DNA of 55,982 bases, from the IMG/VR virus record IMGVR_UViG_3300046467_002171, positions 1 to 55,982 of that record, one strand, 5' to 3'. The first letter of the stretch is position 1. Each line of letters begins with the position of its first letter. This document shows positions 3,231-49,648 of this stretch, one piece after another. The DNA is from a virus (Duplodnaviria > Caudoviricetes). The notes below the pieces were generated by a model. The model was not told the DNA's origin, did not search any database, and worked only from the letters and a program-made list of their open reading frames with translations. The translations under genes and the position numbers were made by a program.

Positions 3231-6200
3231 ATGATTGGCGGCATAGCCCAAGCGTTACGCGACGGTACTTATAAGCCTATTTTCTCTGCTGAGCAGCAAG
3301 CAAGCATGGATGCTCGCAATGCGCACAACGCGGCGGCTGCAAAGGCACTCGCAGAAGCGCCCGCACTTGCAGCACAGCGCAGACGAGACGAAATCGCAGC
3401 GAACCAAGCGTTTTTGGATTCTGGAGGGGCAGATATACCAGACAATTACTGGGGCGATACTGCGGCTTCGAGGAATTGGGTGAATCCTTACTACGATCCT
3501 GAAGATCCGCGAGTAACCAATCCAACCCAGTATACTCGCTTCGACGTATCGGAACGGGGCAGCGGCATCCGGGCTAGCGGTAACAGCCTTGCGACAGCCT
3601 TTGATCGCACCATCGCATCGCAATGGTTGCAGCCATTAGACAGTGGCCTCACCGATGTGCAAGAGCATCTCTATGGCGGCGGTGCGGGTGCTTTCACACC
3701 TCCTGCGTATGCAATAGGCAACCTAGACCCGCGTCAGCAAGCGATCATAAATCAAAATAAAGAACTCGCTCAATACAAAACAACCCTGCGCGGCTTTCAA
3801 AACGACAAGGATTATCAAACGGCCTTCCAGGGGGCGGGTATTAACTTAGCGGGGATCAAGAACGCAGAAGATTTAGCCGCTATTTCTCCAGATAGAAAAG
3901 CTGCTGTTTATGACATCTACCAGCGTATTAAACAAGAGAAAAACCAACGCGAGAAGCCTTTTGGCTTTGGCGATGCCCTTGGAATCGGGCTAGCCGTCGC
4001 ATCGGCTTTTGTCGGCAACCCCTATGCTGCCGCCGCTTTAGGAGCCGGGGGTGCTGCGGCTCGTGGGGGTAACCTCAAAGATATTGCCCTAGCCGGGGGT
4101 ATTGCTGGATTCGCCAATTTTGCGGGGGGCAAACTTGGCGAGGCTTGGGATGCATCCCGAGCAGGTCGAGCAGCCCAAGCAGGTCAAAGCGCAGCGACCG
4201 CATCCAATGTAGCGGCGTTCGGTGGAACCGCAGCCGATGTATTTGGTCAGATTTCACCGGATTTAGCCGTTCGAGGGTTAGGTGGCACGGGGATCACTGC
4301 GGGCAACTTAGGATCTACTATTTTCAACCCAGCAGCGTTGGGGGGTATTCAAGGAGCGACGGCCCTTGGGACAGGTGCCGCACTTGGTGGCACCGCAACC
4401 AATGTATTTGGCGCTCTTCCCGCTACCGGTTCCCAAGTGTTGTCAGGAATCCCCTCCGCAATCGGAAGCCGCCACGGTGTCTCGTCCAGCATAACGCAAG
4501 GGGGCCGCTTGGTGCCCTTTTTGGATAAGAGCGCAAGCGCCGCCTCGCGCCCTCTTACAGGGGCCGGGGCACTTGTCCCATCCTCAGCAGGGGTCGGTAG
4601 ACAACTAGTACATTCTGGGCTTTCGTCGGTAGTAAACTCGATACGAGCGCCATCTGAAGGCGGTGGCGACGACGGCGGTATTGGTGGACTTGTAAATCAG
4701 TTATCTAGCGTTCCGACCATAACTTACCCGGACTATGCCCCGATAAGATCAGGGGCTCCGATACAGGCTGGTTTTGAACGGACTTCAAATATTGGTGTGC
4801 CGTCGGAATACGGCTATGTACCGACCGGACTAACCCCAGAGACTGCGCTTCCTTATGGCTCTGGCCTTGATCCGTATGCCCCGACAACGGGGCCGAATTT
4901 TGACGTATCGCCGTATTTTCAGAGTCCAAAGTTATTTCGTAGGGGCGGTGGTGTAGTAAACGTGGACTCTGGTGCACGGCCCACGGATCAGGAAAGTTTT
5001 TACCAAACATACGAATCGGGGTCGCAGCAGTATTCAGACAATCTTGGCGAAGGCATGGGTATTACTTATGATCGTGTAGAAGGCACCGATATTCCGCCAC
5101 AAAGTCGTCTTCAGGTTTTTGAGACGCCGCCTATGGGCGTTGGGTCGTTAAACGGCACGGCGCGGAACATGTCCCGTTTTGCGTATGGCGGGGGCGTAGG
5201 TTCGTTGAACGAGACGGCACGGGCCATACCTTATGCAGACGGCGGCATTGTTCCTGCTGATATGGTATGGGTTTTGGACGAGGACGGCGTGGAAAGGCTT
5301 TATCCGAAAAGCCTAGTTAAAAGGGAGTATAGCGACGAACCGTTGCCTGTAGAGGGGGATTTTATGGCAAACCTACAGGGGATCCCAGAAACCGTGGAAC
5401 GTTATTCAAGACCGAACGCTAGAGAAGAGAGGCAATTTGACGATTGGCAGGATAACAGAAGCGGCCTACACCCAACGGCTAGTTTAACAAGCCTAAATAT
5501 AGGTACAGATAACTGGGGAGTGGGGGGCAGGTTTGGTATTGGTGCGGGTGCTAATACAATTGACGTTGGGGCAAATATAGATCGCACCGGAGTTAATCTT
5601 AGTGATTTGAAAGCGAGGCTTGGATTGGGTGGCGTGTCGTCCGACCTGAGTCTTTTAGGACCTTTATTAGACCCCGATCGTTTCGAGGGGGCGTTAAACG
5701 CTCCAGTGGGTCAGGGTAGGGTGGCGCTAACGGGGGGCTTACCTTTGAAAGATTCCGGTGAGCCTAACGTAGCTTTGACGTATAGGCAGGAGTTTGCTGT
5801 AGGCGGTCCCATTATAAAAGCGGCTTCTATGGTATGGCAGCCCTTTAAGGTGAAGATAAAAAACCAAGCCATTTTTGGGGACTTCATGGGTTATACCAAG
5901 ACGGGCAAAGTCAGGGTTTTGGACGAGGAATCGGGGGTGGAAAAACTTTATCCGAAGAGTCGGGTAAGACGGGCCTATAGCGACGAACCCTTACCGGACG
6001 AGCCTGTAAAAAAGGTCCTTGGCGGGGCCATCGTCGGCGGTCCTGCGGTTCTAAAAACCGCGGCTGAGTTGTTAAAAAGAGATCCCGCAGGATTCTTTAA
6101 CAAGTCACAGCTTGTCGTACAGGAGGCGAAGTTGCCTCAAGCAACGGGACAGCGGTGGCAACAGTTATTCCAAGATAAGGGGATCAACAAAGCCGAACTG

Positions 6201-8777
6201 GGCGGCCTTGGTCTTTTGACCTTTTTGGGTTCGTCGGGAGACGAGCCGATCACCAAGGAAACTGTCGCGGAGTTTATCGATCAGAACCGTCTTGAGGTGG
6301 GAGAAGACTACAGGAGCACAACCCCGTCCGCTGACGCGGAGGAAAAAATTGACTTGGTACCGACGGATTCCAACATGTTTCGTAATTTAAATCTTTCGTG
6401 GCCCGACGCCGAGGGAGAGGATACGAGTAGCGGTGGGTTTTCTATAGTTATTAGGCCTAAAGAGTATCGCTTCGGAGAATTGGGGCTAGTACGTCCTACG
6501 CAATATAGAGTTATCAATCTAGACCCCGAAAATGGAGTTGATTCACGCCAGTGGAGAGTTGCGACAGATGATTTTGACTCGCAGAACGCGGACTACTATA
6601 GTGAGCTTGAAGGGCAGCATACCGACTACGACGGCACCCTGAACGAACTTAAAGTCAGCCTTACGAGTAGATTAAGGGATCAGGGCGTAATACAGACCTC
6701 TAAAGCGCCACGGTGGGCGGGTTTTATTCTTAGCTCCCCTGCGGTGGATCGTGAAACAGAGCTTCCTGACTCACAGGCCGCCGCTGAGTTATTAAATTAC
6801 AGGGAAATTGCCCTTACGGATCAACAAACGGGCGGACTCCACAAAAATACGCGGGCGCTTATTAACAAGCTCTCTGAACAAGCTTCTATGGCCGCCTTTA
6901 AACCAATTACTGAGTCGCAAACACAACCCCGCCAACACAACTTTCCCGAAAATACACTCGTGCATATTCGGGTAACAGATCGGCCCATCAGTATTAATGG
7001 CGTAGACCACGAGAAGGTCCTTTATGCAGAGGAATTTCAGTCTGACTGGGCACAAGGAGCCATAGGTAGGGGAATACTTCGACCGGAAGATATTTCTCGA
7101 AAGGCAGAATTAATAAACAAATTAAGCGAGATCCGCGTTAACTATAGCACCCTTCCAGATTTCGACACCCCAGAAGGCAAAACCCTCCGAAGAATCGCCG
7201 GACGAGAATCAAGCGAAATAGAAAAGGAGATAGAGGCGCTAGACCGAAAACCGGCGTATTCCCCCTTTCTGGAAAGCGGCGATAAAAAAGGAAGTGTGGA
7301 CCAATCTCCGGTACTTAGTTTAGCTATTAGCCGGTTATTGAAGGAAGCCGTGGACAACGGGCAGGACTACGTGGTCTTTTCTAATTATAAGGATCAGGTA
7401 ACAAGATGGGGCGAGACAAAGCTGGAACCCCTTTACCAAGAAACCATGCCAAATCTGGCAAAGAAAATAGTTAAGAATCTAGGCGGTTATGTGAAGCCTA
7501 AGTTCAAGACGAAGGAAAAAGAAAACAAGTATTACGAACAGAATTCCGACAAAGTGGGTAAAGAAGAGGATGCTTTTTTTGCAGATACCGTGATTGAACC
7601 CCAGACGTTCGAAATATTTTTGGATCCACAAAAAGCTAAACTAGAGCCGCCTTATTCACACCTTAGTGCAAACCGCTTCGTGGTGCATATCACGGACGCG
7701 ATGGCGAAGAAAATACGGGAAGAGGGCCAGCCGGTATTGAGCAGGGCCGCAGGCGGTCCAATTATCAAAGGAGCCGCCAAGGTTTTAACCAAACCCAAAA
7801 AGGCCCCTTTACTCCCGGCTGAAACTCTGATGGCTACACGGCCCGTAGAGCCGTTGGCTACGACACGAACAGGCTACCGTGTGGTGAACGTAGATGATGC
7901 CGGTAATTTAGTTTCGCAAGCAGATGCTCGTGTAGTGTTGCCGCCAGAATTGGGCAGCCAACACAACGTGCCTATGTGGCTGACACTGGACGACCAATAT
8001 GCGGTAGAAAACTATTCGCATGGTTCATTTGAGCCGGGGGAACGGCGGCAGGTGTTGCTGACATATGATTTCAACGAAAAGGATATTCTGCAAGGCAATC
8101 TAACGGATGTAGAGACAGAGTTTAGTGTCGGTCGTGCCAAGCTGCGAGAGATGCGAGATTTGTACGGCGAACCAATATCCCCCATAGACGAGGCAAACCG
8201 GGATAGAACCGGCGCGTCAGCGGTCCCGGCTAGAACCGCTCGCGCATCATACGCCACTCCGCTATTTGACAATAGTGATCCACACGTAAGCGATACGCGG
8301 TTCAATGAGAATTTGCTGGTGTATCTAGACGAGCCTAACACACCTCAGATGCAGGAAAGGTTTGGCGAGGAGAAAGTCGAGCAGCGAAATGGATTCGAGG
8401 TGTTTCAAGGAGAGTTCGGGTCGTGGAGGTACGCTGTACGGGGGGACGATGAAAAGTTGGTGAGTGTTATTCAGGGCGTAGACTTGGACGATGGCAGTGT
8501 TGTATCCAACATGTACACGCGCCCGGATGCTCGTAACCAAGGATTCGCTAAACTCTTGTTCGAGAAGGTTGCTTCAGACAAGGATAATCTAGCTGTATCG
8601 CCTCATTTTTCGCAAAGCGGGGCCGGGTTTTTCGGTCAGCGGAAAAAAGACGGTAGTTCAGAAGGTTACGCCGCAGGCGGTGGCGTCAGTTCTCTTAATG
8701 GGATAGCGCGAAACATGACTCGTTACGCTTATGGCGGTGGGGTGGGGTCTATGAATGAAACCGCACGGTCAATGTAG
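3231..8777 (+). CDS. Large modular (polyvalent-type) virion-associated protein with GG-motif linkers; EExQSDW, ART-like and GNAT domains
   Basis: 1848-aa ORF between TerL and portal; seven x-x-x-GG motifs; GNAT motif TRPDARNQGFAKLL; YR...WLT...ETE. Confidence 0.75.
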   Translation: MIGGIAQALRDGTYKPIFSAEQQASMDARNAHNAAAAKALAEAPALAAQRRRDEIAANQAFLDSGGADIPDNYWGDTAASRNWVNPYYDPEDPRVTNPTQYTRFDVSERGSGIRASGNSLATAFDRTIASQWLQPLDSGLTDVQEHLYGGGAGAFTPPAYAIGNLDPRQQAIINQNKELAQYKTTLRGFQNDKDYQTAFQGAGINLAGIKNAEDLAAISPDRKAAVYDIYQRIKQEKNQREKPFGFGDALGIGLAVASAFVGNPYAAAALGAGGAAARGGNLKDIALAGGIAGFANFAGGKLGEAWDASRAGRAAQAGQSAATASNVAAFGGTAADVFGQISPDLAVRGLGGTGITAGNLGSTIFNPAALGGIQGATALGTGAALGGTATNVFGALPATGSQVLSGIPSAIGSRHGVSSSITQGGRLVPFLDKSASAASRPLTGAGALVPSSAGVGRQLVHSGLSSVVNSIRAPSEGGGDDGGIGGLVNQLSSVPTITYPDYAPIRSGAPIQAGFERTSNIGVPSEYGYVPTGLTPETALPYGSGLDPYAPTTGPNFDVSPYFQSPKLFRRGGGVVNVDSGARPTDQESFYQTYESGSQQYSDNLGEGMGITYDRVEGTDIPPQSRLQVFETPPMGVGSLNGTARNMSRFAYGGGVGSLNETARAIPYADGGIVPADMVWVLDEDGVERLYPKSLVKREYSDEPLPVEGDFMANLQGIPETVERYSRPNAREERQFDDWQDNRSGLHPTASLTSLNIGTDNWGVGGRFGIGAGANTIDVGANIDRTGVNLSDLKARLGLGGVSSDLSLLGPLLDPDRFEGALNAPVGQGRVALTGGLPLKDSGEPNVALTYRQEFAVGGPIIKAASMVWQPFKVKIKNQAIFGDFMGYTKTGKVRVLDEESGVEKLYPKSRVRRAYSDEPLPDEPVKKVLGGAIVGGPAVLKTAAELLKRDPAGFFNKSQLVVQEAKLPQATGQRWQQLFQDKGINKAELGGLGLLTFLGSSGDEPITKETVAEFIDQNRLEVGEDYRSTTPSADAEEKIDLVPTDSNMFRNLNLSWPDAEGEDTSSGGFSIVIRPKEYRFGELGLVRPTQYRVINLDPENGVDSRQWRVATDDFDSQNADYYSELEGQHTDYDGTLNELKVSLTSRLRDQGVIQTSKAPRWAGFILSSPAVDRETELPDSQAAAELLNYREIALTDQQTGGLHKNTRALINKLSEQASMAAFKPITESQTQPRQHNFPENTLVHIRVTDRPISINGVDHEKVLYAEEFQSDWAQGAIGRGILRPEDISRKAELINKLSEIRVNYSTLPDFDTPEGKTLRRIAGRESSEIEKEIEALDRKPAYSPFLESGDKKGSVDQSPVLSLAISRLLKEAVDNGQDYVVFSNYKDQVTRWGETKLEPLYQETMPNLAKKIVKNLGGYVKPKFKTKEKENKYYEQNSDKVGKEEDAFFADTVIEPQTFEIFLDPQKAKLEPPYSHLSANRFVVHITDAMAKKIREEGQPVLSRAAGGPIIKGAAKVLTKPKKAPLLPAETLMATRPVEPLATTRTGYRVVNVDDAGNLVSQADARVVLPPELGSQHNVPMWLTLDDQYAVENYSHGSFEPGERRQVLLTYDFNEKDILQGNLTDVETEFSVGRAKLREMRDLYGEPISPIDEANRDRTGASAVPARTARASYATPLFDNSDPHVSDTRFNENLLVYLDEPNTPQMQERFGEEKVEQRNGFEVFQGEFGSWRYAVRGDDEKLVSVIQGVDLDDGSVVSNMYTRPDARNQGFAKLLFEKVASDKDNLAVSPHFSQSGAGFFGQRKKDGSSEGYAAGGGVSSLNGIARNMTRYAYGGGVGSMNETARSM
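8191..8245. repeat. 55-bp pseudoknot-forming element, copy A (inside the large ORF)
   Basis: 49/55 identical to 47452-47506. Confidence 0.85.
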
Positions 8778-12010: not shown

Positions 12011-12012
12011 AG

Positions 12013-13176: not shown

Positions 13177-13370
13177 ACTCCTTTGATATTGTTCAGTTCA
13201 TACAACGGGCGATTAAGGAACGAAAGACGATTGTTCTGGATGTTTTGGAAAATAATGGTATAAAATCTATAGAACAATACCGAGAACTTATGGGTGAATT
13301 AAACGCCCTTAATTTTGTTTTACAGGAACTCTCGGGCCTGCTAGAAAAACAGGAACAATTAGATGACTGA
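13173..13370 (+). CDS. Conserved hypothetical protein
   Basis: Overlapping start/stop with both neighbours; EQYRELMGELNAL. Confidence 0.75.
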   Translation: MNSFDIVQFIQRAIKERKTIVLDVLENNGIKSIEQYRELMGELNALNFVLQELSGLLEKQEQLDD

Positions 13371-13782
13371 AGCTGCTCAAAATGTAGAAAACCTGTACGT
13401 TAAAGAAGATGGACGCGTACTGGACCCAACTCTTCTTGACAATACTCTTTTGGAAAGAATGCCCAACCCTACTGGTTGGAGGCTACTTATTCTTCCTTAC
13501 CGTGGAAAAGGTACGACCGACGGAGGTATTCACCTACCGGACAAAATCCTTGAAGAAGGCCAAATACAAACGGTTGTCGCCTATGTCATAAAACAGGGTC
13601 CTTTAGCTTATAGGGATAAAGAAAAATTTCCTGACGGAGCTTGGTGCAAGGAAAAGGACTGGATCATTCTTGCTAGGTACGCGGGGTCCAGACTTCGAAT
13701 AGAAGGGGGCGAGGTTCGCATCATTAATGATGATGAAGTTTTAGCCACTATTCTTGACCCAGATGACATTATTAATCTTTAA
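13363..13782 (+). CDS. groES: GroES-like co-chaperonin
   Basis: PTGWRLLI, TDGGIHLP mobile loop, GPLAY, RYAG, RIINDDEVLA. Confidence 0.85.
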   Translation: MTEAAQNVENLYVKEDGRVLDPTLLDNTLLERMPNPTGWRLLILPYRGKGTTDGGIHLPDKILEEGQIQTVVAYVIKQGPLAYRDKEKFPDGAWCKEKDWIILARYAGSRLRIEGGEVRIINDDEVLATILDPDDIINL

Positions 13783-26232: not shown

Positions 26233-26450
26233 TGGACAGACCGATCCTTTCTCTATCGCGTTGGCGGTCTAAGGACAGTTTTGATATAGTGCTTTGTGCA
26301 TCATGCGGTAATAAGGTTGATACACCTGCGGAAGTTGCTTCCTACCCTTCAGGTCAGTGTCCAGAATGTAAGCACCCGTGGACAGGGGCCGAGAAACGCA
26401 GCACAGCAATCTCGGTCCACGCTCCACGTGCCAGCAGAGGAGTGACATAA
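26232..26450 (+). CDS. Small zinc-ribbon protein
   Basis: CASC...CPEC. Confidence 0.6.
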   Translation: MDRPILSLSRWRSKDSFDIVLCASCGNKVDTPAEVASYPSGQCPECKHPWTGAEKRSTAISVHAPRASRGVT

Positions 26451-28309
26451 TGGCGTATGAACTTCCCGCTCAGGGGATCACCGGCATAAAAAAGGTTGCC
26501 GATCACCTTGCGGACTTTGGACGCTTTGGCGACGGCCATCTTGTGCATGCCTCGGAAGGGGAAGCAGTCGTTCCTTCGGCTGTGTTAAATGAAAACCCAA
26601 ATTTAAAAACCGCCCTGTTTACCCAAATGCGAGAGAAGGGCCTTGATCCTAATCGCTATATTGTGGGTGACGAACTTAATTCTATTAATCCGGTTACCGG
26701 CCAACCAGAATTTGGCGCAGTGAGGGATTTTTTCAAAGGCATTAAAAACGTCGTAAAGGCCATTGCGCCGGTTGTACTTCCCGTTGCGTTAAGTATGACG
26801 AAACTAGGCCCCATTTTTGGCTCTGCGGCGGGAACGGGCATTGCTTCGCTTATCGGGGGCGCTAGTCTTGGCAGGAGCTTAAAAAATTCTGTTATTGCTG
26901 GAGGCATTGGTGGACTCTATGCCGGTCTTCAAGGTGCGCGAGCTGGCGGAGGTTGGGAAGGCTTCAAATCGGGGGTAGGCAAAGCCCTTGGGCAACCCTT
27001 TGCAGCCCGCGTCCCACGCACCCCGGCTCCTATAGAAGAGCGGACTTTCGGAGAGTCCGAGCTAAGCCCCATAGATGTAAATGAGTATCTTACCCCAGGG
27101 GAATTACGAGTAGCGTCCGGGACAAACCCCATAACCGCAGCGGAGGCCTCATTACCTTTGGGCCAATTACAACCGCTAGGGAACTTTCCGAGTGACGGAT
27201 CGGACTTTCAACTTCAAGCACGGAGCCCGTTATTTGGACAGACTACGCCTCAGAGGGGTGTTTTTAGCACGGACCCGCCCGCGCCTCTCCTCAGTAGTCG
27301 TTACAGCGGGGCTAATATCCCCAGTACTCGTTACACCGGGGGTATCAGCGCTCGTGGCCCGGAAATGGGTCAACGGCTGCCCTTTGAGCCTAGAGTGCCA
27401 AGATCGGACTATTTGACCCCCGGTAGGACAATTATTTCGGGAGGCACATCGGGTTCCCCATCCTATACAGATCCCAATACGGGCGTAACGACATACGGCA
27501 TAGCCTCTGATCCTATACGTGCTGAAGTAGCACTTGGAACCCCCTATTCGGGGGAAGCCTTTACTAACCGTAATGCACTTGGCCTTAGAGGAATGGAATT
27601 AAAGCCCCCTTCTTTTCGATCACAGGCAGCCCCTATCGTAGATCGCTCTAAAACCCTTCCCCCACAGGGCCCACAGGCAGTTGGTGGTACCTCACAGGGC
27701 GTACAGGGAGACAGTGGCCGTGGCCGCTTTGCCAAGGCGCGGGACTACTTGGTCCGGGGCGGAAAAAACCCGAAGCAAGTGGAAGAGATTAAACAGGCCG
27801 CATTCGACAAAGCACTTTTGCGGACGGGTGACGTGAATATAGCGGACGAGGCTTACAATGCCGCCGGTCCCAATATGCTGGAAAAATGGGGGCCTTCAAC
27901 GGCTTTGGGTCTAGGTGCTGCGGGGCTCTTCGGTGCGTTTAAACCGGGGGAGGAGCCAGAGCCTGTAGATTTTTACGCTCAAATGGGGGGGACTTCAACG
28001 GACCGGTTAAGAGATAATCCCGGTCTATTTAGGGTAGGTGTCCCGACGAGAGCTTATACCCCCGCCACCCTCGAAGATATTAGATATAGCGCCGTGGGCG
28101 GCCCCATAAATCAAGATAATTTTCCTCGGCGTATTGGAGCTATTAACGGAGCGGGTACAGGCACGTCCGATGATGTACGCGCTATGCTGTCCGACGGGGA
28201 ATATGTGATGACGGCTAAAGCGGTACGTGGGGCCGGAAACGGAAACCGGAAACAAGGGATGCACAACATGTATAACATGATGCGCCAATTTGAAGGTCAA
28301 GCAGTCTAA
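26450..28309 (+). CDS. Internal virion/ejection protein
   Basis: GAGGAG RBS before ATG 26450; GRFGDGHLVH...NPVTGQPE domain; hydrophobic G/A segment; C-terminal AVGG...GTSDDVRAMLSDGEYV. Confidence 0.7.
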   Translation: MAYELPAQGITGIKKVADHLADFGRFGDGHLVHASEGEAVVPSAVLNENPNLKTALFTQMREKGLDPNRYIVGDELNSINPVTGQPEFGAVRDFFKGIKNVVKAIAPVVLPVALSMTKLGPIFGSAAGTGIASLIGGASLGRSLKNSVIAGGIGGLYAGLQGARAGGGWEGFKSGVGKALGQPFAARVPRTPAPIEERTFGESELSPIDVNEYLTPGELRVASGTNPITAAEASLPLGQLQPLGNFPSDGSDFQLQARSPLFGQTTPQRGVFSTDPPAPLLSSRYSGANIPSTRYTGGISARGPEMGQRLPFEPRVPRSDYLTPGRTIISGGTSGSPSYTDPNTGVTTYGIASDPIRAEVALGTPYSGEAFTNRNALGLRGMELKPPSFRSQAAPIVDRSKTLPPQGPQAVGGTSQGVQGDSGRGRFAKARDYLVRGGKNPKQVEEIKQAAFDKALLRTGDVNIADEAYNAAGPNMLEKWGPSTALGLGAAGLFGAFKPGEEPEPVDFYAQMGGTSTDRLRDNPGLFRVGVPTRAYTPATLEDIRYSAVGGPINQDNFPRRIGAINGAGTGTSDDVRAMLSDGEYVMTAKAVRGAGNGNRKQGMHNMYNMMRQFEGQAV

Positions 28310-29352
28310 TGCCTGAATCTACCGTCTCTACACAATTTATCCGAGAAGACCCGGCTATTGAAGCCTATCGTCTGGGTCTTTTAGCGGACGTACAAGGCTT
28401 TATAAAACAACAGATAGAAGAAGGCGTACTGCCCCCGGATTATCAGGTTGCGGGTTTATCCGGTTTAGAACAAGCCGGTGCGCGCGTCGCAGAAGAAGGT
28501 ATTGGGGGTTACGAGCAATATATTTCAGGCGGCCTTCGTGGCATACAGGCCGGGCAAGCCGCCGTTTCGGGTGCGGCGATGCCCATGATGGGCACTGGTT
28601 TTGACGCCTATAAACAAGGCTTGGCCGGAATTCCGACAACCGCAGAGCAATTTGATCCGACTATGGCTCAGGCCTATATGGATCCCTATGAAGATCAGGT
28701 TGTACAGCAAGCCTTAAAAGACTTACAACGACAAAGCGATATTGCTCAAGTAGGCGATCAGGCGCGAGCCGTGGGCGCAGGCGCTTTTGGTGGTTCCCGA
28801 GAAGGTATTGTAAGAGCCGAAAATATAAGAAACCTTCAGGAAGCACAGATTCGTTCTTCAGGACAATTGAGATCTGCGGGTTATCAACAGTCTCTTCAAA
28901 ACGCCCAACAAGCGTTTGAAGCCGCGCAACAACGACAATTGGCGGGCGTGGGTCTTACCGGTCAGTTAGCCCAAGGTATTGGTCAATTAGGCTTACAAAC
29001 CGGTCAGTTGGGGGGCCAGTTGGGTACGTTAGGGCTACAAGAGGCCGGTTTGGGAGAATTAAGCACTAATCTGGGGATAGCTCAATCCAGAAATCTTATG
29101 GACATAGGTGGTGTACAACGGGCACAGCAACAAGCGGAATTGGACGCACTGCGTCAAACCAATCTTGCTCGACAAGCGCAGCCCTATCAGCAGTATGCTT
29201 TCCTGTCGGACATTTATAAAGGAACGCCGTCAGGACAGCAGGTCATTACGTCTTCTGCGGCGGCACAACCCTCATCCTTTCAAACGGCGGCGGGTTTTGG
29301 TATTGCGGGGCTGGCTACGGCAGCAGGCGCTAAAAACGCGGGGTTATTCTAA
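28309..29352 (+). CDS. Putative DNA ejection/pilot protein
   Basis: Q/G/A-rich; AYMDPY..QVV, AGAFGGSREG; hydrophobic C-terminus. Confidence 0.6.
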   Translation: MPESTVSTQFIREDPAIEAYRLGLLADVQGFIKQQIEEGVLPPDYQVAGLSGLEQAGARVAEEGIGGYEQYISGGLRGIQAGQAAVSGAAMPMMGTGFDAYKQGLAGIPTTAEQFDPTMAQAYMDPYEDQVVQQALKDLQRQSDIAQVGDQARAVGAGAFGGSREGIVRAENIRNLQEAQIRSSGQLRSAGYQQSLQNAQQAFEAAQQRQLAGVGLTGQLAQGIGQLGLQTGQLGGQLGTLGLQEAGLGELSTNLGIAQSRNLMDIGGVQRAQQQAELDALRQTNLARQAQPYQQYAFLSDIYKGTPSGQQVITSSAAAQPSSFQTAAGFGIAGLATAAGAKNAGLF

Positions 29353-32300
29353 TGGCGGGTGTTTTATCTAGACCTTTATTTCGTCAGCACTACCAGGCAG
29401 GCGGTGGGGTTTCGGACCTCTTGGAACGCGGAAGAGGTATGGGTGGAGCCGCTCTAGAACGCGGAAGAGGTATGGGTGGAGCCGCTGTTGAATATCTAAT
29501 GAAGCAAGGCCTTTCTCTTGAAGAGGCGGTAGAACAACTAAAAAATAACCCCCGTTTAATAGAAGCCCTAGAACGCGGAGAAGGCATTGCAGGCGAAGCC
29601 CTAGAACGTGGAAGGGCCGCTATAGACGATCCACGTGTGAGAGCAACCTTTGAACGTGGGAAGGGTATGGCAGGCGAAGCCCTAGAACGTGGAAGAGGAC
29701 TTATGGAACGCCTACACGGAGTACCCCCCGGCGGCTTTGGTGCAGGTTCGGTTAATGTACCCCCCGGCGGCTTTGGTGCAGGCCCAGTTAATGTACCCCC
29801 CGGCGGTTTCGGGGGGACTAATTTACCTGTACCCGTACAGCGGTCTGGTTTGCCCGTACAGCGGTCTGGTTTGCCCGTACCCACAAGTAGTGATGTAGGG
29901 CTTCCTCGATCCTTTGATACGGATCATATAGATAGCTTCCGAAATAAAGCAGGACGTTTGGCAAAAGGTCTCGGACGTTTGGCCATGAACCCTTATGTAG
30001 CTGCGGCTTCAATAGGGATCCCTTTAGCTTACGACGCTTTAACAGATTCTCCAGGAGAATTGTTGGATCAACTAGACACACAAACACGCGCCTATGTTGA
30101 ATATTTAATGGAACAAGGCGTTTCCATTGAAGAAGCGCTGAAAATAGCTAGTCCCTCCGAAGAGGCTCCTTTAGAAAGACAAGCCGGTGGCCCCGTCATG
30201 TCACCACAGGCGAGGATGCCGCCACCACAGGGAATGCCGCCACAGGCGATGATGCCGCCCCCTCAAGCCACACCTGCGGGCATGGATGCGTTAATGAGGG
30301 AAGCCCCGCAAATGTTAAACCAAGCCGAAGGGGCCGTAGCTACACGAATGGAAGAGGTGGGCCGTGAGTACGTCAACAACACGTTATCTGCGGTAGACAT
30401 GGCTGAAGATCCCGAAGGGTTAATAAACGCTATTCGTGGAACAGACGTACCCCTTGAGCAACGGTATGACGAACTAGCCCAAATCGTGGGCGAACAGGAT
30501 GCAGAGGCCACGCCGCCTTCTGTTTTAGCCTTGGTACAGCCTGCGATTATGATGACGGAGCAGGGTGCCGTGGACAGTGGTATAGGCAACCTGATGCAGG
30601 AATTATCGAGTAGTGCTGAAATGCTGACGGGAGAGGGCGAAGCCACTCCGATGGGAGAGGGCGTCGGCAATTTGATGATGGCTGGTGCACAACCGGCAAT
30701 GGAAGCGCTCCCCCCTGAAGCCATGATGGGTCCCCCGCCCGGAGCGATGATGCCACCACAAGCGATGATGCCACCACCGCCCGGAGGAATGGCCTACGGC
30801 GGCCCCGTACAGCGTTTTGCTTATGGCGGTATGGTTAATAGTGCGCAAGGATTAGCCCGTCTAGGACGGGGGCCAGATACCGAGTTGGTTCATATGTCTA
30901 AACGAGAAATCGGTGCTCTAGACGAGATGGCTAGACAAAGGGGGTTTGCTGGACTACCTCTTAATCCACAAACAGGGCTTCCTGAAGCCGGTCTATTTGA
31001 TCAGGATCCGGGTATTCTTGGCTCTGCGATCGACTTCGCTCGTAACCCTGTGGGGGCTTCGGTCGATCAGGCGAAAAATTTGTATACGGGCATTAGTAAT
31101 ATACTGGGTGATCCCAGTTTTCGGAAGGCTACAGGTGATTTTGACTATACTTATGGCGCAGACCGTCTAAATCCGAACTGGCGCAGCGCTGCGGAAGCAT
31201 TGACCCCTGATTTTATATCTTTACCGAATCTGCCCGCTCTACAACATGCCGAAATGAGCTCGTTTAACCCGACCTCCCAGTTAGATGCAAGCAGCCTTGT
31301 CCAGTTAGGCGATAGCGGCCCCTTGTCTGGTCTAAGCAAAAGTGCGATAGAGCGCTTAGCTCAGAGAAATATAAGGGGCCCAGTAGATGACTCTGTCTTT
31401 AACGTCCCAACCATAGCTCCGGCAACAGTTACGGACACAGAGGCAACAGTACTTAACCGTCCGGGCAGAATGCTCTATGAACCGGGACGGCAAGACTTTA
31501 AGGTCGATTATGACGATCCCGAGCGTTTTAAACAAAACTTTGACGCGCGGCTTAAACTTTACGAAGACGTTTTAGGCTCTGACAAGGACTTTACTAAATC
31601 CCAGATGCTGTTTGACATTGCCGGTGCGGGCTTAAACTTTGCCGGTGGGCGCGGTGCGGGTGGTGAAAATGTTGCCACACGATCTCCTGCGGCGCAGTTA
31701 GCAGCCGCTTTTTCGCAAGTGCCTAAAACTATGGGGGAACGTCTGGCGCTGCAAAGACAGGAAGAACGGGGTGTGAAAACCGCCGCCCTCGCGGCCACCG
31801 AAAAAGAAGAAACCGCCCGCCGAGAGGTCGTCGCGGACGAGCGTAAACTTAAACAGAGCCTGCTGCTTGAGGTGGAAAAAGGGAATTTCAATGCAAACAA
31901 TCTTGTGGATCTAACTGAGGGAAAGATGACGCATGAAAGAACTTTAGCGACGGCAGACCGCTTCTTGAGGGGAGAACTTGCAAGAATATCGAGCAGCACC
32001 GATTTAGCATCCGTTGGCATGCGCGGCAAGATTCAAGCTGCTCTGGGCGAGGTAGATCATCAATACGACATTATAAAACTAGCAGCAACGCTAGACACTC
32101 AGATTAAGAACAAGATGCTAGACGGCAATGTAGCGATTAGCCTGTCTAATACACGACTGCAAACTGAGCAGGAACTAACCCGGTTTAGACAAACTAGCCA
32201 AGACATAAGGTCTGAAAGAGAACTACGCCTTAGAGAAAATCTTGGTGCGGCCGGTCTTAGACAAACCTACGACGCGCTAAACCTACAACGCGCTAGTAGA

Positions 32301-33095
32301 ATAGATGTATTCAATTTAGGCCTAGAAGGCGAGATAACCACGAGAGAGCGGGAACGGTTAGCTGCCAAAATACAGAGCAACCGGGATTACTCGCAAGCCT
32401 CTCAATTTGAAGAGTTGCAGGCTTTCAAAGAGAAGCTTTCGGACAGAGAGCAACGGATGTTTGAGCAAAAACTTGCGACGAACTTCTTGATGGCGACCAC
32501 GGGCCAACTTACCAGAGAGGATTTGCTGCGAGAGTCCGCGTACGATAGACAACTCCAAAGCGCAATGGGCATAGACAACTGGAACAAGTTCAGTTACCAA
32601 CTCGATGAAAACATACGACAATTTGACATAGCGAACGGGCTAGAGGCCGATTCAATATATGGCACAATGGCGCTTAAAAAGAGGGTCTTAGATCGGGAGG
32701 CCCTTGAATATCTTCAACGCAGCACACCGGGTGTTTTTGACGACATTCCGGGCGGCACTCAAGCAGAAAGAGATCGAAATATTTTTGCAATGAGGCCCCT
32801 ATGGAAGCGTTATGCGGAAGGAACGTTAGCTCCTGCTCAGGAGGATTATTTATCCGCTCTTATAACAGGCTATCTGGATCCCACGCTAAACTCGCAAGGC
32901 CTCGAAACGCGCAAGGCCCTCCCACAAATGGCGCTTGCGGCTCTCCGAGAACGAGGGGAGCGGGGGCTAACCATGCCCATACAAAGTTCTACGGACATGG
33001 ATTTTGAAGGGGTGGATCCGAACTTTTTTAATTCACGAGACGCCGCGTTGGGCGCGTATGATAATAGGCTTTTAAATTTGATTCCGGAGAGCTAA
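29352..33095 (+). CDS. Large internal virion protein with GG motifs and tandem repeats
   Basis: YQAGG, RQAGG, MAYGG, FAYGG; GRGPDTELVH...NPQTGLPE; helical C-terminal half. Confidence 0.7.
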   Translation: MAGVLSRPLFRQHYQAGGGVSDLLERGRGMGGAALERGRGMGGAAVEYLMKQGLSLEEAVEQLKNNPRLIEALERGEGIAGEALERGRAAIDDPRVRATFERGKGMAGEALERGRGLMERLHGVPPGGFGAGSVNVPPGGFGAGPVNVPPGGFGGTNLPVPVQRSGLPVQRSGLPVPTSSDVGLPRSFDTDHIDSFRNKAGRLAKGLGRLAMNPYVAAASIGIPLAYDALTDSPGELLDQLDTQTRAYVEYLMEQGVSIEEALKIASPSEEAPLERQAGGPVMSPQARMPPPQGMPPQAMMPPPQATPAGMDALMREAPQMLNQAEGAVATRMEEVGREYVNNTLSAVDMAEDPEGLINAIRGTDVPLEQRYDELAQIVGEQDAEATPPSVLALVQPAIMMTEQGAVDSGIGNLMQELSSSAEMLTGEGEATPMGEGVGNLMMAGAQPAMEALPPEAMMGPPPGAMMPPQAMMPPPPGGMAYGGPVQRFAYGGMVNSAQGLARLGRGPDTELVHMSKREIGALDEMARQRGFAGLPLNPQTGLPEAGLFDQDPGILGSAIDFARNPVGASVDQAKNLYTGISNILGDPSFRKATGDFDYTYGADRLNPNWRSAAEALTPDFISLPNLPALQHAEMSSFNPTSQLDASSLVQLGDSGPLSGLSKSAIERLAQRNIRGPVDDSVFNVPTIAPATVTDTEATVLNRPGRMLYEPGRQDFKVDYDDPERFKQNFDARLKLYEDVLGSDKDFTKSQMLFDIAGAGLNFAGGRGAGGENVATRSPAAQLAAAFSQVPKTMGERLALQRQEERGVKTAALAATEKEETARREVVADERKLKQSLLLEVEKGNFNANNLVDLTEGKMTHERTLATADRFLRGELARISSSTDLASVGMRGKIQAALGEVDHQYDIIKLAATLDTQIKNKMLDGNVAISLSNTRLQTEQELTRFRQTSQDIRSERELRLRENLGAAGLRQTYDALNLQRASRIDVFNLGLEGEITTRERERLAAKIQSNRDYSQASQFEELQAFKEKLSDREQRMFEQKLATNFLMATTGQLTREDLLRESAYDRQLQSAMGIDNWNKFSYQLDENIRQFDIANGLEADSIYGTMALKKRVLDREALEYLQRSTPGVFDDIPGGTQAERDRNIFAMRPLWKRYAEGTLAPAQEDYLSALITGYLDPTLNSQGLETRKALPQMALAALRERGERGLTMPIQSSTDMDFEGVDPNFFNSRDAALGAYDNRLLNLIPES
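29424..29880 (+). repeat. Cluster of in-frame tandem repeats (33, 36 and 21 bp units)
   Basis: ERGRGMGGAA x2 (29424, 29457); VPPGGFG x3 (29721, 29757, 29793); perfect 21-mer x2 (29832, 29853). Confidence 0.85.
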
Positions 33096-33107: not shown

Positions 33108-33794
33108 GTGCCAACAATAGCCGACTTTAAACAGCGTTATCCTCAGTTCGAGGATATGGCCCCTGAAACTCTGGCCCGTGAACTTCATACACGTTTTTAT
33201 TCTGAGCGACCTTATGAAGATTTTATGCAGGAAGTATTACCTGCCCGTGGGGAAGAAAGCCAAGTTGATTTATTAGGTGTCTCTGAAGGTTTAGATCTGA
33301 CGGCAGGCACTGGTGTCTCTGCAAAAGCAAACTTCTATATTAACCAAGCCTCGGATTTAGCTAATGAGGTATTTGGTACAGACATTCCAGCAATGTCTCA
33401 ATCCGCCGAAGAGCTTATACCGGCTTTAGATGCGCTAAGCACTATCGCCACTACTGAAATGATGAAGACCATTTCAGGAAAGGAAAATTTACAACTCCAA
33501 TTAAGGTTGCAGAAACTGCAAGTGCCTTCAAAAAGTTTTATCTATAACGACCGACGATCTTTGAATCAGTTTAAAACCGCCTCCCGCACTATGGATTTTG
33601 CAGGAAAACTTTTACTTGAAAAGCTAGAATCGGGGGACTTAGATCGCAAACAAATTATAAAAACTAAACGCGACTTATCCTCGGCGCGGTCACTTCAAAG
33701 AGAATACGATAAGTTGACGAACGCTTATGAGCGAAAAATGGGTATAGGCATGGAAGAGGAAGATGAAGATTTAGATCGATTCTTCACGTTTTAA
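33108..33794 (+). CDS. Internal virion protein
   Basis: AAGGAG RBS, GTG start; FKQRYPQFEDM...LH..FY N-terminal motif. Confidence 0.7.
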   Translation: MPTIADFKQRYPQFEDMAPETLARELHTRFYSERPYEDFMQEVLPARGEESQVDLLGVSEGLDLTAGTGVSAKANFYINQASDLANEVFGTDIPAMSQSAEELIPALDALSTIATTEMMKTISGKENLQLQLRLQKLQVPSKSFIYNDRRSLNQFKTASRTMDFAGKLLLEKLESGDLDRKQIIKTKRDLSSARSLQREYDKLTNAYERKMGIGMEEEDEDLDRFFTF

Positions 33795-33800
33795 GTAATC

Positions 33801-36800
33801 ATGGCTGATTTCACAGACCTTTTAGACCCTTCTGGCATTCTGGATGAAGATACTTTATCGAGTATTGGAAACACAGCGGAAACGGCTCGTCCCATTTTAG
33901 GAGTTTCTCCAACGGGTTCCAGATTTATAGAAAATTTTGATACCCGTGGGGCTTATGCGGCCCTACGAGAAAAGGGGGATGAGGATTTAGAGGCCAAGCG
34001 AAAAATAGCTGAACGACTGGCTCAAGAAACCCGTTTTAGTATAGAAGCCGCCACACGAGCGGGCTATTCTTACGACGAAATCATAAGTAAATTAACCGGC
34101 GTAGACCGTGAAGAATACGGGGGCGGCTATGGGGCTGCGGCCCGTGGTTTCGGGAGAGAGATTGCTCCCACACTTGCTTTGGGAGCGGGTGGCGTATATG
34201 GAGGACGCGGCGCAGGAAAAGTGATGCGTGGCGCAGCGGGTGCGGCATCGGCGGCAGGTCAAAAGCTAAGAGAAACCGCACGGGATCCTTCCCCACCACG
34301 TCAGGTCGATCCAAGGGTACGTGCCACAGGCGGACAAAAGCCTAATTTAGCCGCACGTATTCTAAATCTCACGCCAAAAGTAGCAAAAGCTGCGGCAGCC
34401 GCAAGATTAGGGCCTATTTCAAAGGGCCTTGGTTATTTAACGGGGGTATTTGGCGGTGCCATTGGTGCGGAAGTCGCTGCCAGAAAAGGGGTAGACGAGG
34501 TTTTTGGCGAACCTCGCCCGTTGGAACTTGCCGATTACCCACGCTATGAAGCGGGTAGAACGGCGGGCATGTTTATTGGGTCTATTCCCGCTACATTTAG
34601 TATAGCGAACGTGCTAAAAGACATTCCAAATTTGGCTCCCGCAGCAATTGGTACAAACGTAGCGCGGATGGGGGCTAAAGAAGGTGGCGACCCTTCAGGT
34701 TTTGTAAGAAAAATGTTCGACTGGGGTCGTCAACAGGCCGGGGAGAAAGCGGCTAGGGCCCGTGCGAGAGCGGCTGGGGGGACAAGGGCCGCGCAGGAAG
34801 CCTTGGAGGGCGGCGCAGGGGCATTAAAAAAGGTTGGGCAAGCCATCGTTGAACACCCCAAGAGCGTAATTGCAGGTGAAGCTGCGTTAGGCCTTGCGTG
34901 GACGCCTTTCGGGGCAATGGTTGCAGAAGAACTCTATCCGGCTCAAGCCGGGGCTAAATTAGGCGCTGAAATCACCGCTTCTGTCGTTTATCCCGGCTCC
35001 ATGCTTTCCCTTGTCAAAATTCCTTTTCGCAAAGCCAGCGCTGCCTTTGGGAAAGGTGCCCGAGAGCAACAGGCTGCGGATTACATGGTCAACCTATTTG
35101 ATGAATTACAAAAAAGGGGTGTCGAGGAAACTCCAGAAGAGTTTTTAGCCACGCTTAGAGCCGCGAAGTTTGAAGACGTTTCAGGGAACGTGGTTGAAGT
35201 TACACCGTCGCAATTAACGGGAAGCACGACGTATTCCATATTAGAAAAGTTCTTGTCAGACGTAAGCCCCGCTTATTCTGCGGTTAATAAAAAGTCGGCT
35301 AGAGACGGCCATGCTGCACTAACCGGACTTATAACGGCGCTTTATTCTCACTCAGACCCCAATCTCGTCAACATGGCGGCGAAGCTAGAAGAAAAAATGC
35401 TTCAGGACACCTTTACAAAATGGTTCGACGTGAGGCTGGATAAGGCGGTTGCTACAACAGAAGCGTTTGCGAAACGTACCGATGCTACACCAGCGACCAT
35501 ACAAAGAGAGGTCAATAATCAAGTTCACGAAAGTATGAAAAGCGCATTAACAGACGCGCGAGTTGTAGAAAAGCGTCTTTATCAAGACGTTGATAAAACA
35601 ATGGAGGTGTCTGTAGATAATATTGCAAAACGGTGGAATGACGAATACGCCAAGCTGTTTAAACCAGGCGTAACGCGTAAAGAATTAGAGAGAGCGGGAA
35701 TACCCGCTTTTCTCAAAGAACTGGAAAACCCAGATAGTCAATTGTGGGGGCAATTAACGGAGCAGTTACAAAACAGCCAAAAGCTGTCCGATGATTTAAA
35801 CAAAGCGGTAGAAAAATCCGCAGGGCAATCAGCGTCACTAGCTTTAAATAAGTATCTTCGCAGCAGGGCTATGGGTACGGGTTTAACCCCAGATCAAAAA
35901 CTGGTCGCAGCGGAACGTGCCTTTCGAAACACGCCTGAAAGAGGAGGGGCCCCCGGCACATATGAAACTATTGAGGGTGTGGCAAAAGATTTGACGCCCA
36001 AACAACGAAAAAACGCCGCAGACTTGGCAAAAAAAATGCAGGATATTCGGAAGACAGATGCCGAAATAAACGGGCTAACCGCCGAAATTACAAAAATCAG
36101 TAATCCGGATGGTACCGCCCCGGAACATTTTAAACGTGTCACGTTACGAGAGCTTATGGGTTTTAGATCGGAAATGCTAAACAGCATAAGAAGTACGCAA
36201 GCCGGGGAAGTGGTTAATTATAACGCCCGTCGAATTTATGGCGAACTAGCGGACGCGGCGCTGGATGATATGGGAGCCAACATTAACAAAAACCCCATTT
36301 CTGGAGAAGTAATTGATGAAGCTCAGGAGGTCAGTCCTAACGTAAAAAAATTGATAAAAGCCTACACGTTTTCCAGAGCACTTAACGACAGCTTTTCAAG
36401 GGGCTTTGGTGGGACTCTGGGGCACGTAAAGGGAACGGGACAATATAAAGTACAGCCAGAATTAGCATTAGAGGAATTGTTCAAAGGGAGCAGTAATGCG
36501 GTCTCTATAAAATATACCGAACTTCAAGAGGCCCTATCCCTGTTAGAAACAGCCTCCAAAGGTATTAACGAAACCGCAGAAGGGCTTTTTGTTCCAAATA
36601 TAGTATCGCTCATTGAAGACGAAGGTCTAAGAAAAGCAGGCGTCAATGACGCGCTGGATATGTTCCTGCGACAAGCCTTTCGAGATGAGGCTGTTGTCAG
36701 GACCCCTGTATATAACCCCGCGACGGGGGAAACTATTGATCGTGCGATCGTAGACGAAAAAAAATGGGGAAAGTTTTTAAAGGACCACGAAGAGATTCTT

Positions 36801-49597: not shown

Positions 49598-49609
49598 CTG
49601 ACGGAAGAT

Positions 49610-49638
49610 AAAAAAACCCGACCCCGTGAAGGGTCGGG
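49610..49638 (-). terminator. Terminator between convergent genes
   Basis: CCCGACCC/GGGTCGGG stem preceded by an A run (T run on the minus strand). Confidence 0.7.
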
Positions 49639-49648
49639 CTTAAAGGCA

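What the first reader, a model, noticed from the sequence alone, without database searches (positions are those of the whole stretch)
26498..30989. Small conserved domains next to GG tags: candidate reader or autoprotease
Seen: LADFGRFGDGHLVHASEGE...INPVTGQPE (26498-26713) and LARLGRGPDTELVHMSKRE...LNPQTGLPE (30843-30989, directly after FAYGG) are paralogous. A third, GAGTGTSDDVRAMLSDGEYV (28136-28237, after AVGG), has similar G..D.....(G)E spacing. Known: the last type follows [FY]AxGG in many tape-measure proteins. Inference: conserved D/H/E residues could recognise or cleave the tag, linking podovirus ejection proteins to tape-measure processing.
Basis: partly seen in the sequence, partly recalled or inferred. 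Interest (0 to 1): 0.7.

Follow-up and report, generated by a model that had tools for sequence, protein, structure and literature searches.

The report
End modules of phage ejection proteins
The short conserved segments are real and very widespread in phages. They look like the standard front and back ends of an injected, tape-measure-like protein joined at glycine "seams", not like a demonstrated enzyme that reads or cuts the glycine tag.

Summary
The window is a 94%-complete podovirus-type phage of the HTVC023P/CRP-901/DSL-LC04 group.

**Module A.** The pattern is GR-x2-D-x4-H-x4-E ... NP-x-TG-x-x-E. It occurs twice, and the paralogy holds: profile-profile E 2e-7, and an independent HMM gives E 4.8e-5.

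**Module B.** This is the C-terminal GxGTGTSD...LSDGEYV...MYxMM stretch. It matches tape-measure PHROGs and the mycobacteriophage Douge tape measure protein. A and B resemble each other only over about 14 residues (E about 0.005).

**New here.** A and B are the N- and C-terminal ends of one large, unannotated family:
- A matches 3813 cluster representatives.
- 257 of 300 A proteins in my pool also carry B.
- ORF 26450-28309 is a full member. ORF 29352-33095 carries an extra internal A.

**Relation to the tag.**
- A is N-terminal and untagged in 337 of 352 proteins.
- When A is internal, 21 of 22 proteins have a GG tag ending 9-11 residues upstream.
- So the tag marks a module seam.

T5 pb2 is cut after R1127, directly before AEGG and an HxxE stretch (PMC10038345). 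Lambda gpH carries FATGG followed by VHRGEFV where its unmapped cut lies.

No protease fold, family or binding was found. The link to tape-measure proteins is supported.

The parts
26450..28309 (+). Gene for a 619-aa ejection-type, tape-measure-like protein: module A, hydrophobic helices, a long variable Pro/Gly/Ser-rich middle, module B
   Evidence: ORF and start. The database form P0004 is identical. Of the 120 hits listed there, 122 sequences were regex-scanned together with two window forms; the A and B motifs recur at conserved positions in most. 40 of them were aligned as A1. AF2 gives helices at 95-181 and a mostly low-confidence middle.
26489..26713 (+). Module A, copy 1 (long form): ...ADxLADFGR-x2-D-x4-H-x4-E, then an inserted helix, then INPVTGQPEF
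   Evidence: invariant G R D H E L N P T G E. (E 1.6e-40).
26732..26992 (+). Hydrophobic, glycine-rich helices after A (probable membrane-inserting segment)
   Evidence: AF2 helices 95-114, 122-135 and 140-181. Hydropathy windows above 1.4 start at residues 97-108. The equivalent part of a relative's model matches only transmembrane helices.
28091..28102 (+). Degenerate GG tag (AVGG) upstream of module B
   Evidence: Not matched by [FYWM]xxGG.
28136..28306 (+). Module B: GxGTGTSD-x-[VI]-x-A-M-L-S-D-G-E-Y-V, then helix-loop-helix ending ...MYNMMRQFEGQAV at the C-terminus
   Evidence: PHROG hits 6090, 23013, 5448, 25241 (tape measure) and 13338 (unknown function). Douge gp16 hit. Invariant columns. 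The equivalent part of relative L044 was modelled at pLDDT about 90.
29352..33095 (+). Gene for a 1247-aa internal, ejection-type protein that carries tags and an internal copy of A but no B
30789..30830 (+). Two GG tags, MAYGG and FAYGG, the seam in front of A copy 2
30831..30992 (+). Module A, copy 2 (short form): MVNSAQGLARLGRGPDTELVHMSKRE...LNPQTGLPEAG
   Evidence: (E 3.4e-12).
3231..8777 (+). 1848-aa protein with five strict tags, each followed by a GV-x-SLN-x-x-AR-x-M helix unit. Two of these units end the protein.
   Evidence: No Pfam or PHROG family.

Best explanation
Modules A and B are the conserved N-terminal and C-terminal end modules of one large, so far unnamed family of virion-borne, membrane-inserting, tape-measure-like ejection proteins. 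ORF 26450-28309 is a complete member. Its order is A, glycine-rich hydrophobic helices, a variable low-complexity spacer, then B. ORF 29352-33095 is a different internal protein into which a second A has been fused behind a GG tag.

The GG tag ([FY]-A-x-G-G, usually followed by a short helix) is the seam at which such modules are joined. It is probably also the place where the chain is cut or docked. The modules are the functional ends on either side of the seam, not the enzyme that works on it.

Inferred mechanism:
1. The protein is carried in the particle.
2. B acts like the C-terminal fragments of tape measure proteins (T5 pb2C, lambda gpHC). Its terminal strand plus helix-loop-helix would hold or plug the exit channel until triggering.
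3. On ejection the hydrophobic helices enter the host envelope.
4. A has an invariant polar set (R, D, H, E, N, T, E). It would then act next to the membrane as a small ligand- or metal-binding site, or possibly a catalytic one.

Shown: the modules, their paralogy, their pairing in one protein, their positions, the tag-seam rule, and B's presence in tape measure proteins. Inferred: packaging, cutting at the seam, the plug role of B, and any chemistry of A.
For: Family and size. A profile of A (21 sequences) finds 3813 representatives at E<=1e-3 and 817 at <=1e-10 among 1.84 billion. The best 150 all carry A within the first ~130 residues.

Pairing. 60 of 80 A-bearing ORFs from viral contigs also carry B near the C-end, and by my reading of their coordinates many of the other 20 end at a locus end. 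In the pool of 302 proteins, 300 have A and 257 have both. B's DGE core lies a median of 38 residues from the C-terminus.

Seam rule. Of 374 distinct A proteins, 352 have A within the first 100 residues, and 15 of those 352 have a tag within 30 aa upstream. 22 have internal A, and 21 of those 22 have [FYWML]xxGG ending 9-11 residues before the GR. The commonest free-standing short form has 13 residues before the GR, which puts its start at the position of the tag's GG.

Module shuffling. The DSL-LC04 homologue has FAMGG followed by A inside its first protein. Its third protein has the MANGG-IVQRF seam without A.

Tape-measure link for B. PHROG 6090, 23013 and 5448 (E 4.7e-9 to 1.3e-6). Two internal copies in Douge gp16, after YAGGG and ANGG.

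Precedent for cutting at a seam. T5 pb2 is cleaved after R1127 (PMC10038345, passage read). The sequence there reads ...FVPR then AEGG, and 12 residues later H-G-T-E-V-V-T-P.

Lambda. gpH has FATGG (733-737), then GTGGKYEPAGIVHRGEFVFTKEA, then YATGG (778-782), within the stretch (about 690-817) that remains unresolved. It lies beside the glycine-rich region where its unmapped, uncatalysed-so-far cut occurs. A Mannheimia tape measure protein has three tandem tag-plus-module units.

Membrane segment.

Phage type. SU10-type adaptors, and the nearest cultured relatives are podoviruses (abstract of PMC9599517).
Against: Nothing shows that this phage's proteins are packaged, cut or ejected.

The core of A was modelled with low to moderate confidence (pLDDT <50, 59-80), so its fold and chemistry are unknown.

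The likeness of B to the lambda and T5 stretches is at motif level only. The B profiles hit lambda gpH at E 0.09-0.12 in a small search, and T5 pb2 gave no significant match: two profiles gave none and the third E 0.049 at -0.2 bits. The PHROG families hit by B and those hit by lambda or Mannheimia cassettes do not overlap.

The 22 internal-A proteins come mostly from two lineages, so the seam rule rests on few independent events.

Only 93 of 281 B proteins have an aromatic tag within 70 aa upstream, against 11% in random windows.

Strict invariance of seven polar residues in A fits an enzyme or metal site better than a passive end piece.
Confidence: 0.5

Rival explanations
1. First reader's view. 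The modules are cis-acting readers or autoproteases. Their conserved D/H/E residues bind or cut the GG tag next to them, and this is how tape measure proteins such as lambda gpH and T5 pb2 are processed.
For: Internal A always follows a tag at a fixed 9-11 residues (21 of 22). The T5 cut after R1127 lies directly before AEGG and an HxxE stretch that the T5 authors call a metallopeptidase motif (PMC10038345). How lambda gpH is cut, and exactly where, is unknown (PMC12617516). D, H and E in A are invariant.
Against: 337 of 352 N-terminal A copies have no tag within 30 aa upstream. 201 of 229 long-form A+B proteins have no strict tag and 132 have none at all. B has Met or Leu where A has His, and lambda and T5 place their His at other spacings. 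There is no protease family or fold. Three tandem cassettes in one tape measure protein suit a repeated binding unit better than a single-turnover cutter.
Confidence: 0.12
2. The modules are small cell-wall-acting units. After ejection they bind or hydrolyse peptidoglycan, as proposed for the T5 pb2C fragment.
For: The T5 stretch after the cut is described as a metallopeptidase motif with muralytic activity (PMC10038345 passage citing Boulanger 2008; the 2008 paper itself was not seen). Tandem repeats of the cassette occur in a tape measure protein. Copy 1 of A has H-x-x-E. An Atlas structural neighbour cluster of the A region is 95% LysM-bearing (a lead only).
Against: Lambda virions are reported to lack such an enzyme, and gpH has no known activity (PMC12617516). 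A copy 2 and B lack HxxE. No hydrolase family matched. At about 45 residues the module is very small for an enzyme.
Confidence: 0.13
3. A is a removable leader or self-cleaving element. One option is that it is cut off at the invariant ...TG-x-P-E before the hydrophobic part by a head or host protease. The other is that the invariant Asn-Pro bond breaks by asparagine cyclisation, as in FlhB/YscU (NPTH) and several animal-virus entry proteins. Either way the membrane-active part would be released.
For: N, P, T, G and E are invariant, directly followed by an amphipathic or hydrophobic segment. A is N-terminal in 352 of 374 proteins. The comparison families are recalled, not tested.
Against: No sequence or fold match to any such family. 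NP-x-TG may simply be a turn. No recognisable head protease was found in the window.
Confidence: 0.1
4. A and B are docking pieces that load the protein into the capsid or fix it to the portal or nozzle, with the GG tag plus helix serving as an uncut address label.
For: The positions are terminal. Tag-plus-helix units form the extreme C-terminus of the 1848-aa protein. The core strands have low stand-alone model confidence, as expected for parts that fold on a partner.
Against: No partner was identified. The same B module lies inside long tape measure proteins, far from any end. The invariant polar residues of A are unusual for a docking peptide.
Confidence: 0.15

Closest known systems
T5 tape measure protein pb2 and its processing into pb2* and pb2C (Linares et al. 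2023, PMC10038345)
   Same: A hydrophobic stretch is followed by a tag-like A-x-G-G and a short H/E-containing ...E-V-V-x-P stretch, near the C-terminus of a protein that is ejected through the tail and enters the envelope. The cut maps to the first residue of the tag-like peptide.
   Different: T5 is a long-tailed phage. Its position before the Ala is Arg, not an aromatic residue. The His spacing differs (HxxE). The B and A profiles gave no significant match to pb2 (best E 0.049 at -0.2 bits), and T5 pb2 belongs to other Pfam and PHROG families.
Lambda tape measure protein gpH, region 733-782 (between Pfam Tape_meas_lam_C and the gpI-bound C-terminus)
   Same: FATGG, then GTGG...IVHRGEFVFTKEA...LYRLMRG, then YATGG. 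The order matches tag, G-rich loop, GE[FY]V strand and LYxxM helix in B. The stretch lies in the unresolved region (about 690-817) next to the glycine-rich segment where gpH is cut to gpH* by an unknown agent at an unknown site.
   Different: The match to the B profile is not significant (E 0.09-0.12). His is present where B has Ser or Leu. No Pfam model covers this stretch; PF09718 ends at residue 701.
Tape measure proteins of PHROG 6090/23013/5448/25241 and mycobacteriophage Douge gp16 (PDB 8ZDO chain S)
   Same: They carry the same B core, GxGTGxSDS...A..S.GEF..., preceded by xAxGG.
   Different: There the module is internal and can occur twice. These are long-tailed phages. That part of gp16 is not modelled in the structure; only residues 1658-1699 are (PMC13033339). 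Those proteins were not seen to carry A.
Phage DSL-LC04 'tail tape measure protein' WJZ48115.1
   Same: The closest annotated homologue (38% identity over the C-terminal quarter). It has FAMGG plus short-form A, hydrophobic helices, and FANGG plus B, in the same gene order.
   Different: A is internal there, behind a ~150-aa extension and a tag. The name is an automatic annotation in a podovirus-like genome.
GG junction tags noted earlier in this scan on other phages (e1-5954041, e1-6094022, e1-5976803, e1-5981103)
   Same: The same [FY/R]-A-x-G-G tag lies at module joints of internal virion proteins, with the same lambda and T5 comparison.
   Different: Those notes concern the tag. Here the subject is the conserved modules on either side of it and their pairing in one family.

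Membership tests
Unnamed A-TM-B ejection-protein family (this report) | Module A (GR-x2-D-x4-H-x4-E ... NP-x-TG-x-x-E) within the first ~100 residues | tested here: met
   ORF 26450-28309: A at residues 14-88.
Unnamed A-TM-B ejection-protein family (this report) | Hydrophobic, glycine-rich helices directly after A | tested here: met
Unnamed A-TM-B ejection-protein family (this report) | Module B ending the protein (DGE core about 38 residues from the C-terminus) | tested here: met
   ORF 29352-33095 fails this row: it has A only.
Tape measure protein of long-tailed phages | A recognised tape-measure domain (Pfam TMP_2, PhageMin_Tail, TMP_N/TMP_C and the like; names partly recalled) | tested here: not met
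   No Pfam or NCBIfam family at E<=0.01 for either protein. PHROG tape-measure hits cover only the ~45 residues of B.
Tape measure protein of long-tailed phages | Encoded in a long-tail module (tail tube, chaperones, distal tail protein) | tested here: not met
   Among the ORFs scanned (18 for PHROGs, 44 plus 8 for Pfam), no hit was named as a tail tube or chaperone family. SU10-type adaptor proteins are present, and the relatives are podoviruses.
GG-tag-adjacent domain (the finding's own class) | [FY]-A-x-G-G directly upstream of the domain | tested here: inconclusive
   Met for A copy 2 (FAYGG). Not met for A copy 1. Degenerate for B (AVGG)..
Zinc peptidase-like motif of T5 pb2C (HxxE) | His and Glu in H-x-x-E spacing before the V-V-x-P strand | tested here: not met
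   A copy 1 has H-A-S-E, but the conserved Glu is at H+5. A copy 2 has H-M-S-K-R-E. B has no His.
Known self-cleaving or protease families (LexA-like, HINT, NPTH, peptidase clans) | A sequence or fold match to the family | tested here: inconclusive
   No hits in Pfam, NCBIfam or PDB sequence searches. Foldseek found nothing at E<=0.001, and VIA-align matches cover only the membrane helices. The modules were not folded alone.

The most novel reading that the evidence does not exclude
The tag-plus-module cassettes are self-processing elements. In this reading they are short, portable units that cut the chain at their own GG seam, or in A at the invariant Asn-Pro. They would thereby release a plug fragment and a membrane-active fragment from ejected proteins. 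The same chemistry would then explain the still unexplained cuts of lambda gpH and T5 pb2, and would unite podovirus ejection proteins and tape measure proteins as one class of self-maturing injection proteins.
Probability: 0.1. Interest if true: 0.85.

Novelty: new variant of a known kind. Interest (0 to 1): 0.5.

Why it matters
Module A defines a very large phage protein family (3813 representatives at 50% identity). None of the three libraries tested on it (Pfam, NCBIfam, PHROGs) names it. Proteins with A at the front and B at the back are common in uncultured marine and lake phages, including relatives of abundant pelagiphages.

The pairing of A with a module shared with tape measure proteins gives sequence-level support to an old functional analogy. 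Podovirus ejection proteins and tape measure proteins both leave through the tail and build the envelope channel.

The seam rule and the T5 cut also suggest where to look for the lambda gpH cleavage site, around F733-G737. They point to which residues to mutate, H752 and E755. A 2025 paper states that both the site and the catalyst are unknown (PMC12617516).

Tried and rejected
**Co-fold.** A (residues 1-95) was co-folded with the tag-plus-B end (520-619) of the same protein. Result: no verdict (score 0.01, mark 0.32). This counts neither way.

**Full-length AF2 models.** The window protein gave mean pLDDT 50, and the 330-aa relative L044 with 65 sequences gave 65. Neither placed A against B with confidence.

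**Fold searches.** Foldseek against the PDB found nothing at E<=0.001. VIA-align wide gave Z<=6.2, all on the membrane helices 72-129.

**Family and sequence searches for A.**
- Pfam and NCBIfam at E up to 10: nothing for A. For B, one chance-level Ig hit.
- PDB sequence search with the A profile: only chance-level rows.
- ESM Atlas: viral hypothetical clusters only.
- PHROGs do not contain A.

**A versus B.**
- The narrow-profile comparison was not significant.
- The broader one gave E about 0.005 over 14 columns.

**Attempts to widen the lambda-type cassette.**
- Protein search: 7228 hits, but of the 120 listed all but one (the Mannheimia protein, 73% identity) are 99-100% identical to lambda over the query region.
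- Viral-contig scan: all 80 loci kept are 92-100% identical to lambda.
- No diverse profile could therefore be built.
- The PHROG cross-check found no family shared between B and the lambda or Mannheimia cassettes.

**tblastn against cultured phages.** It found almost nothing for the 1247-aa protein, the A-led proteins or A alone.

**Literature.**
- A full-text search for six motif strings found no relevant paper.
- The JBD30 'cut at 1066' is the authors' speculation, not a mapped site (PMC11445458).
- Boulanger 2008 and Zivanovic 2014 were not available.

Full report
**What the window is.** The 55,982-base window is a whole virus record, estimated 94% complete. It encodes:
- a large terminase, portal, capsid protein and SU10-type adaptor proteins;
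- a GTA-type holin with a GH108 lysin;
- a replication block.

Its portal is closest to Phage DSL-LC04, Pelagibacter phages HTVC023P and HTVC027P, and Roseobacter phages CRP-901 and CRP-902 (45-53% identity). HTVC023P-type phages are described as Podoviridae (abstract of PMC9599517, listed).

Downstream of the tail genes lies a run of large + strand ORFs with no Pfam family. They are 26450-28309 (619 aa), 28309-29352 (347 aa), 29352-33095 (1247 aa), 33108-33794 and 33801-38018. This is the usual place for internal or ejection proteins. That role is inferred from position and from the DSL-LC04 annotation 'DNA transfer protein' for a neighbouring gene.

**The observation.** All three stretches are there.

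The first gene starts at the ATG at 26450. GAGGAG lies upstream and the start overlaps the preceding stop (TAATG). The database form P0004 begins there too. Copy 1 of module A is therefore at the very N-terminus. Copy 2 lies in the middle of the 1247-aa protein, right after MAYGG...FAYGG.

BLASTP between the two proteins is only E 0.049. Family profiles settle the matter:
- hhalign between the two A families gives probability 93.6% and E 2e-7.
- An HMM of copy-2 relatives, with the window's near kin removed, hits the copy-1 ORF at E 4.8e-5, with the N- and C-halves in order.

A joint alignment of 21 sequences has invariant G, R, D, H, E ... L, N, P, T, G, E. The long form simply carries a ~23-residue insertion. 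That profile finds exactly two places in this genome.

Module B (28136-28306) is the conserved C-terminus of the 619-aa protein. It matches tape-measure PHROGs 6090, 23013, 5448 and 25241. It also matches two internal sites of the Douge tape measure protein gp16, both preceded by xAxGG. That part of gp16 is not modelled in the structure (PMC13033339, passages).

The suggested kinship of B with A is weak. Only x-[DE]-G-E-x-V-[IV]-P-x-x-V aligns (E 0.004-0.006, probability under 10%). HTVC023P gp79 has an intermediate-looking ...DTMLAQLADGEFV, which is suggestive only.

**Are the domains 'next to GG tags'?** Only partly.
- Strict [FYWM]AxGG occurs seven times in the window: five in the 1848-aa ORF 3231-8777 and two in front of A copy 2.
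- The 619-aa protein has none, and 'AVGG' before B is a degenerate form.
- Across relatives, 93 of 281 B proteins have an aromatic tag within 70 residues upstream, against 11% of random windows.
- 201 of 229 long-form A+B proteins have no strict tag, and 132 have no tag at all. By contrast, 54 of 57 short-form A+B proteins have at least one.

**What it is.** A and B belong together.
- In 80 viral-contig loci found with the A profile, 60 A-bearing ORFs also carry B about 85 residues from their end. By my reading of their coordinates, many of the rest run off the contig.
- In the pool of 302 retrieved proteins, 300 have A and 257 have both.
- A is followed by glycine-rich hydrophobic helices. 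The only fold matches of a relative's model are transmembrane helices.
- The middle is variable and low in complexity.
- The family is very large: 3813 representatives at E<=1e-3. Pfam, NCBIfam and PHROGs do not describe A.

ORF 26450-28309 is a complete member. ORF 29352-33095 is another protein with an extra A and no B.

**The seam rule.** Among 374 distinct proteins in which the GR motif could be placed, 352 have it within the first 100 residues. Only 15 of those have a tag within 30 residues upstream.

The other 22 have an internal A, and 21 of them have [FYWML]xxGG ending 9-11 residues before the GR. The commonest free-standing short form has 13 residues before the GR, which puts its start codon at the position of the tag's two glycines. 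Natural fusion and fission boundaries therefore coincide with the tag.

The 22 proteins come mainly from two lineages, so few independent events underlie this.

In DSL-LC04 the same seam (MANGG-IVQRF) exists without A. There A sits behind another seam in the first protein. This shows that A moves between seams.

In the 1848-aa protein, each tag is followed by a GV-x-SLN-x-x-AR-x-M helix that resembles the first helix of A. Two such units form its extreme C-terminus.

**Comparison with tape-measure processing.**

[quoted passage not shown] In the T5 sequence this is ...FVPR, then AEGG, and twelve residues later H-G-T-E-V-V-T-P.

*Lambda.* PMC12617516 (passages) states several points:
- Neither the site nor the catalyst is known.
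- Residues ~690-817 are unresolved.

Within that unresolved stretch, beside the glycine-rich segment, gpH carries FATGG (733-737), GTGGKYEPAGIVHRGEFVFTKEATSRIGVGNLYRLMRG, and YATGG (778-782). A cut at 737 would give a 12.2-kDa fragment. No Pfam model covers this stretch.

*Mannheimia.* A Mannheimia tape measure protein has three tandem tag-plus-module units.

*Limits of the comparison.* These resemblances to B follow the same order of elements but are not statistically established. Lambda scores E 0.09-0.12 against the B profiles. T5 gave no significant match (best E 0.049 at -0.2 bits). The PHROG families do not overlap.

**Does anything point to a reader or protease?**

Arguments against:
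- No family, sequence or fold match was found.
- His is invariant in A but absent from B, and it sits at other spacings in lambda and T5.
- Most A and many B copies have no tag in cis.
- The cassette can be repeated three times in one protein.

Arguments that keep it open:
- The fixed tag-to-A distance.
- The T5 cut beside an H/E stretch.
- The seven invariant polar residues of A, which suggest a chemical role.

I therefore rank the end-module and seam reading first (0.5). I keep self-processing as a minority view (about 0.1), alongside cell-wall action, a removable leader or Asn-Pro cleavage, and docking.

**Earlier notes of this scan.** GG tags at joints of internal phage proteins were already reported on other DNA. 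One note (e1-5954041) makes the same T5 and lambda comparison. I checked the T5 statement in the paper and in the sequence. The new part here is the pair of modules flanking the seams and their union in one family.

Noticed in passing
window 3231-8777 (+): An 1848-aa protein between terminase and portal has no Pfam or PHROG family. It carries five strict GG tags, each followed by a GV-x-SLN-x-x-AR-x-M unit. The protein ends with two such units in tandem.
   Followed up: partly
window 28309-29352 (+): A 347-aa Gln/Gly-rich protein between the two module-bearing genes. It is conserved in the same position in DSL-LC04 (295 aa, same ...SDIYKG... and C-terminal ...GAKxAGLF). No family was found.
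   Followed up: no
L084 37799-38749 (HTVC023P gp79): A small 316-aa protein with a B-like module whose first half reads like A (...DTMLAQLADGEFV...). It may be an intermediate between the two modules (E 1.8e-6 to the B profile).
   Followed up: partly
proteins P0154, P0136, P0152: Some A-led proteins carry other domains in the precomputed Pfam column. P0154 has a pretoxin HINT domain (PF07591). P0136 and P0152 have DUF4214 (PF13946). The HINT domain is itself a self-cutting element.
   Followed up: no
L079 7983-8993 and 9045-9920: In one viral contig the A-bearing and B-bearing parts are two adjacent ORFs. This is either a natural split or a sequencing frameshift.
   Followed up: no
window 11627-13782 (+): A GTA-type 3-TM holin, a GH108 lysin with a PG_binding_3 domain, a 2OG-Fe(II) oxygenase and a GroES-like gene sit between the portal and the head genes.
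   Followed up: no
window 49193-51166: A pyrimidine-dimer DNA glycosylase gene (+) lies next to a 505-aa minus-strand ORF with an HATPase_c_3 domain and no PHROG family.
   Followed up: no
protein P0307 residues 838-1110: A Mannheimia prophage tape measure protein has three near-identical tandem repeats of about 107 residues, each containing F[AS][TS]GG plus the lambda-type VH[KR]GEYV module.
   Followed up: partly
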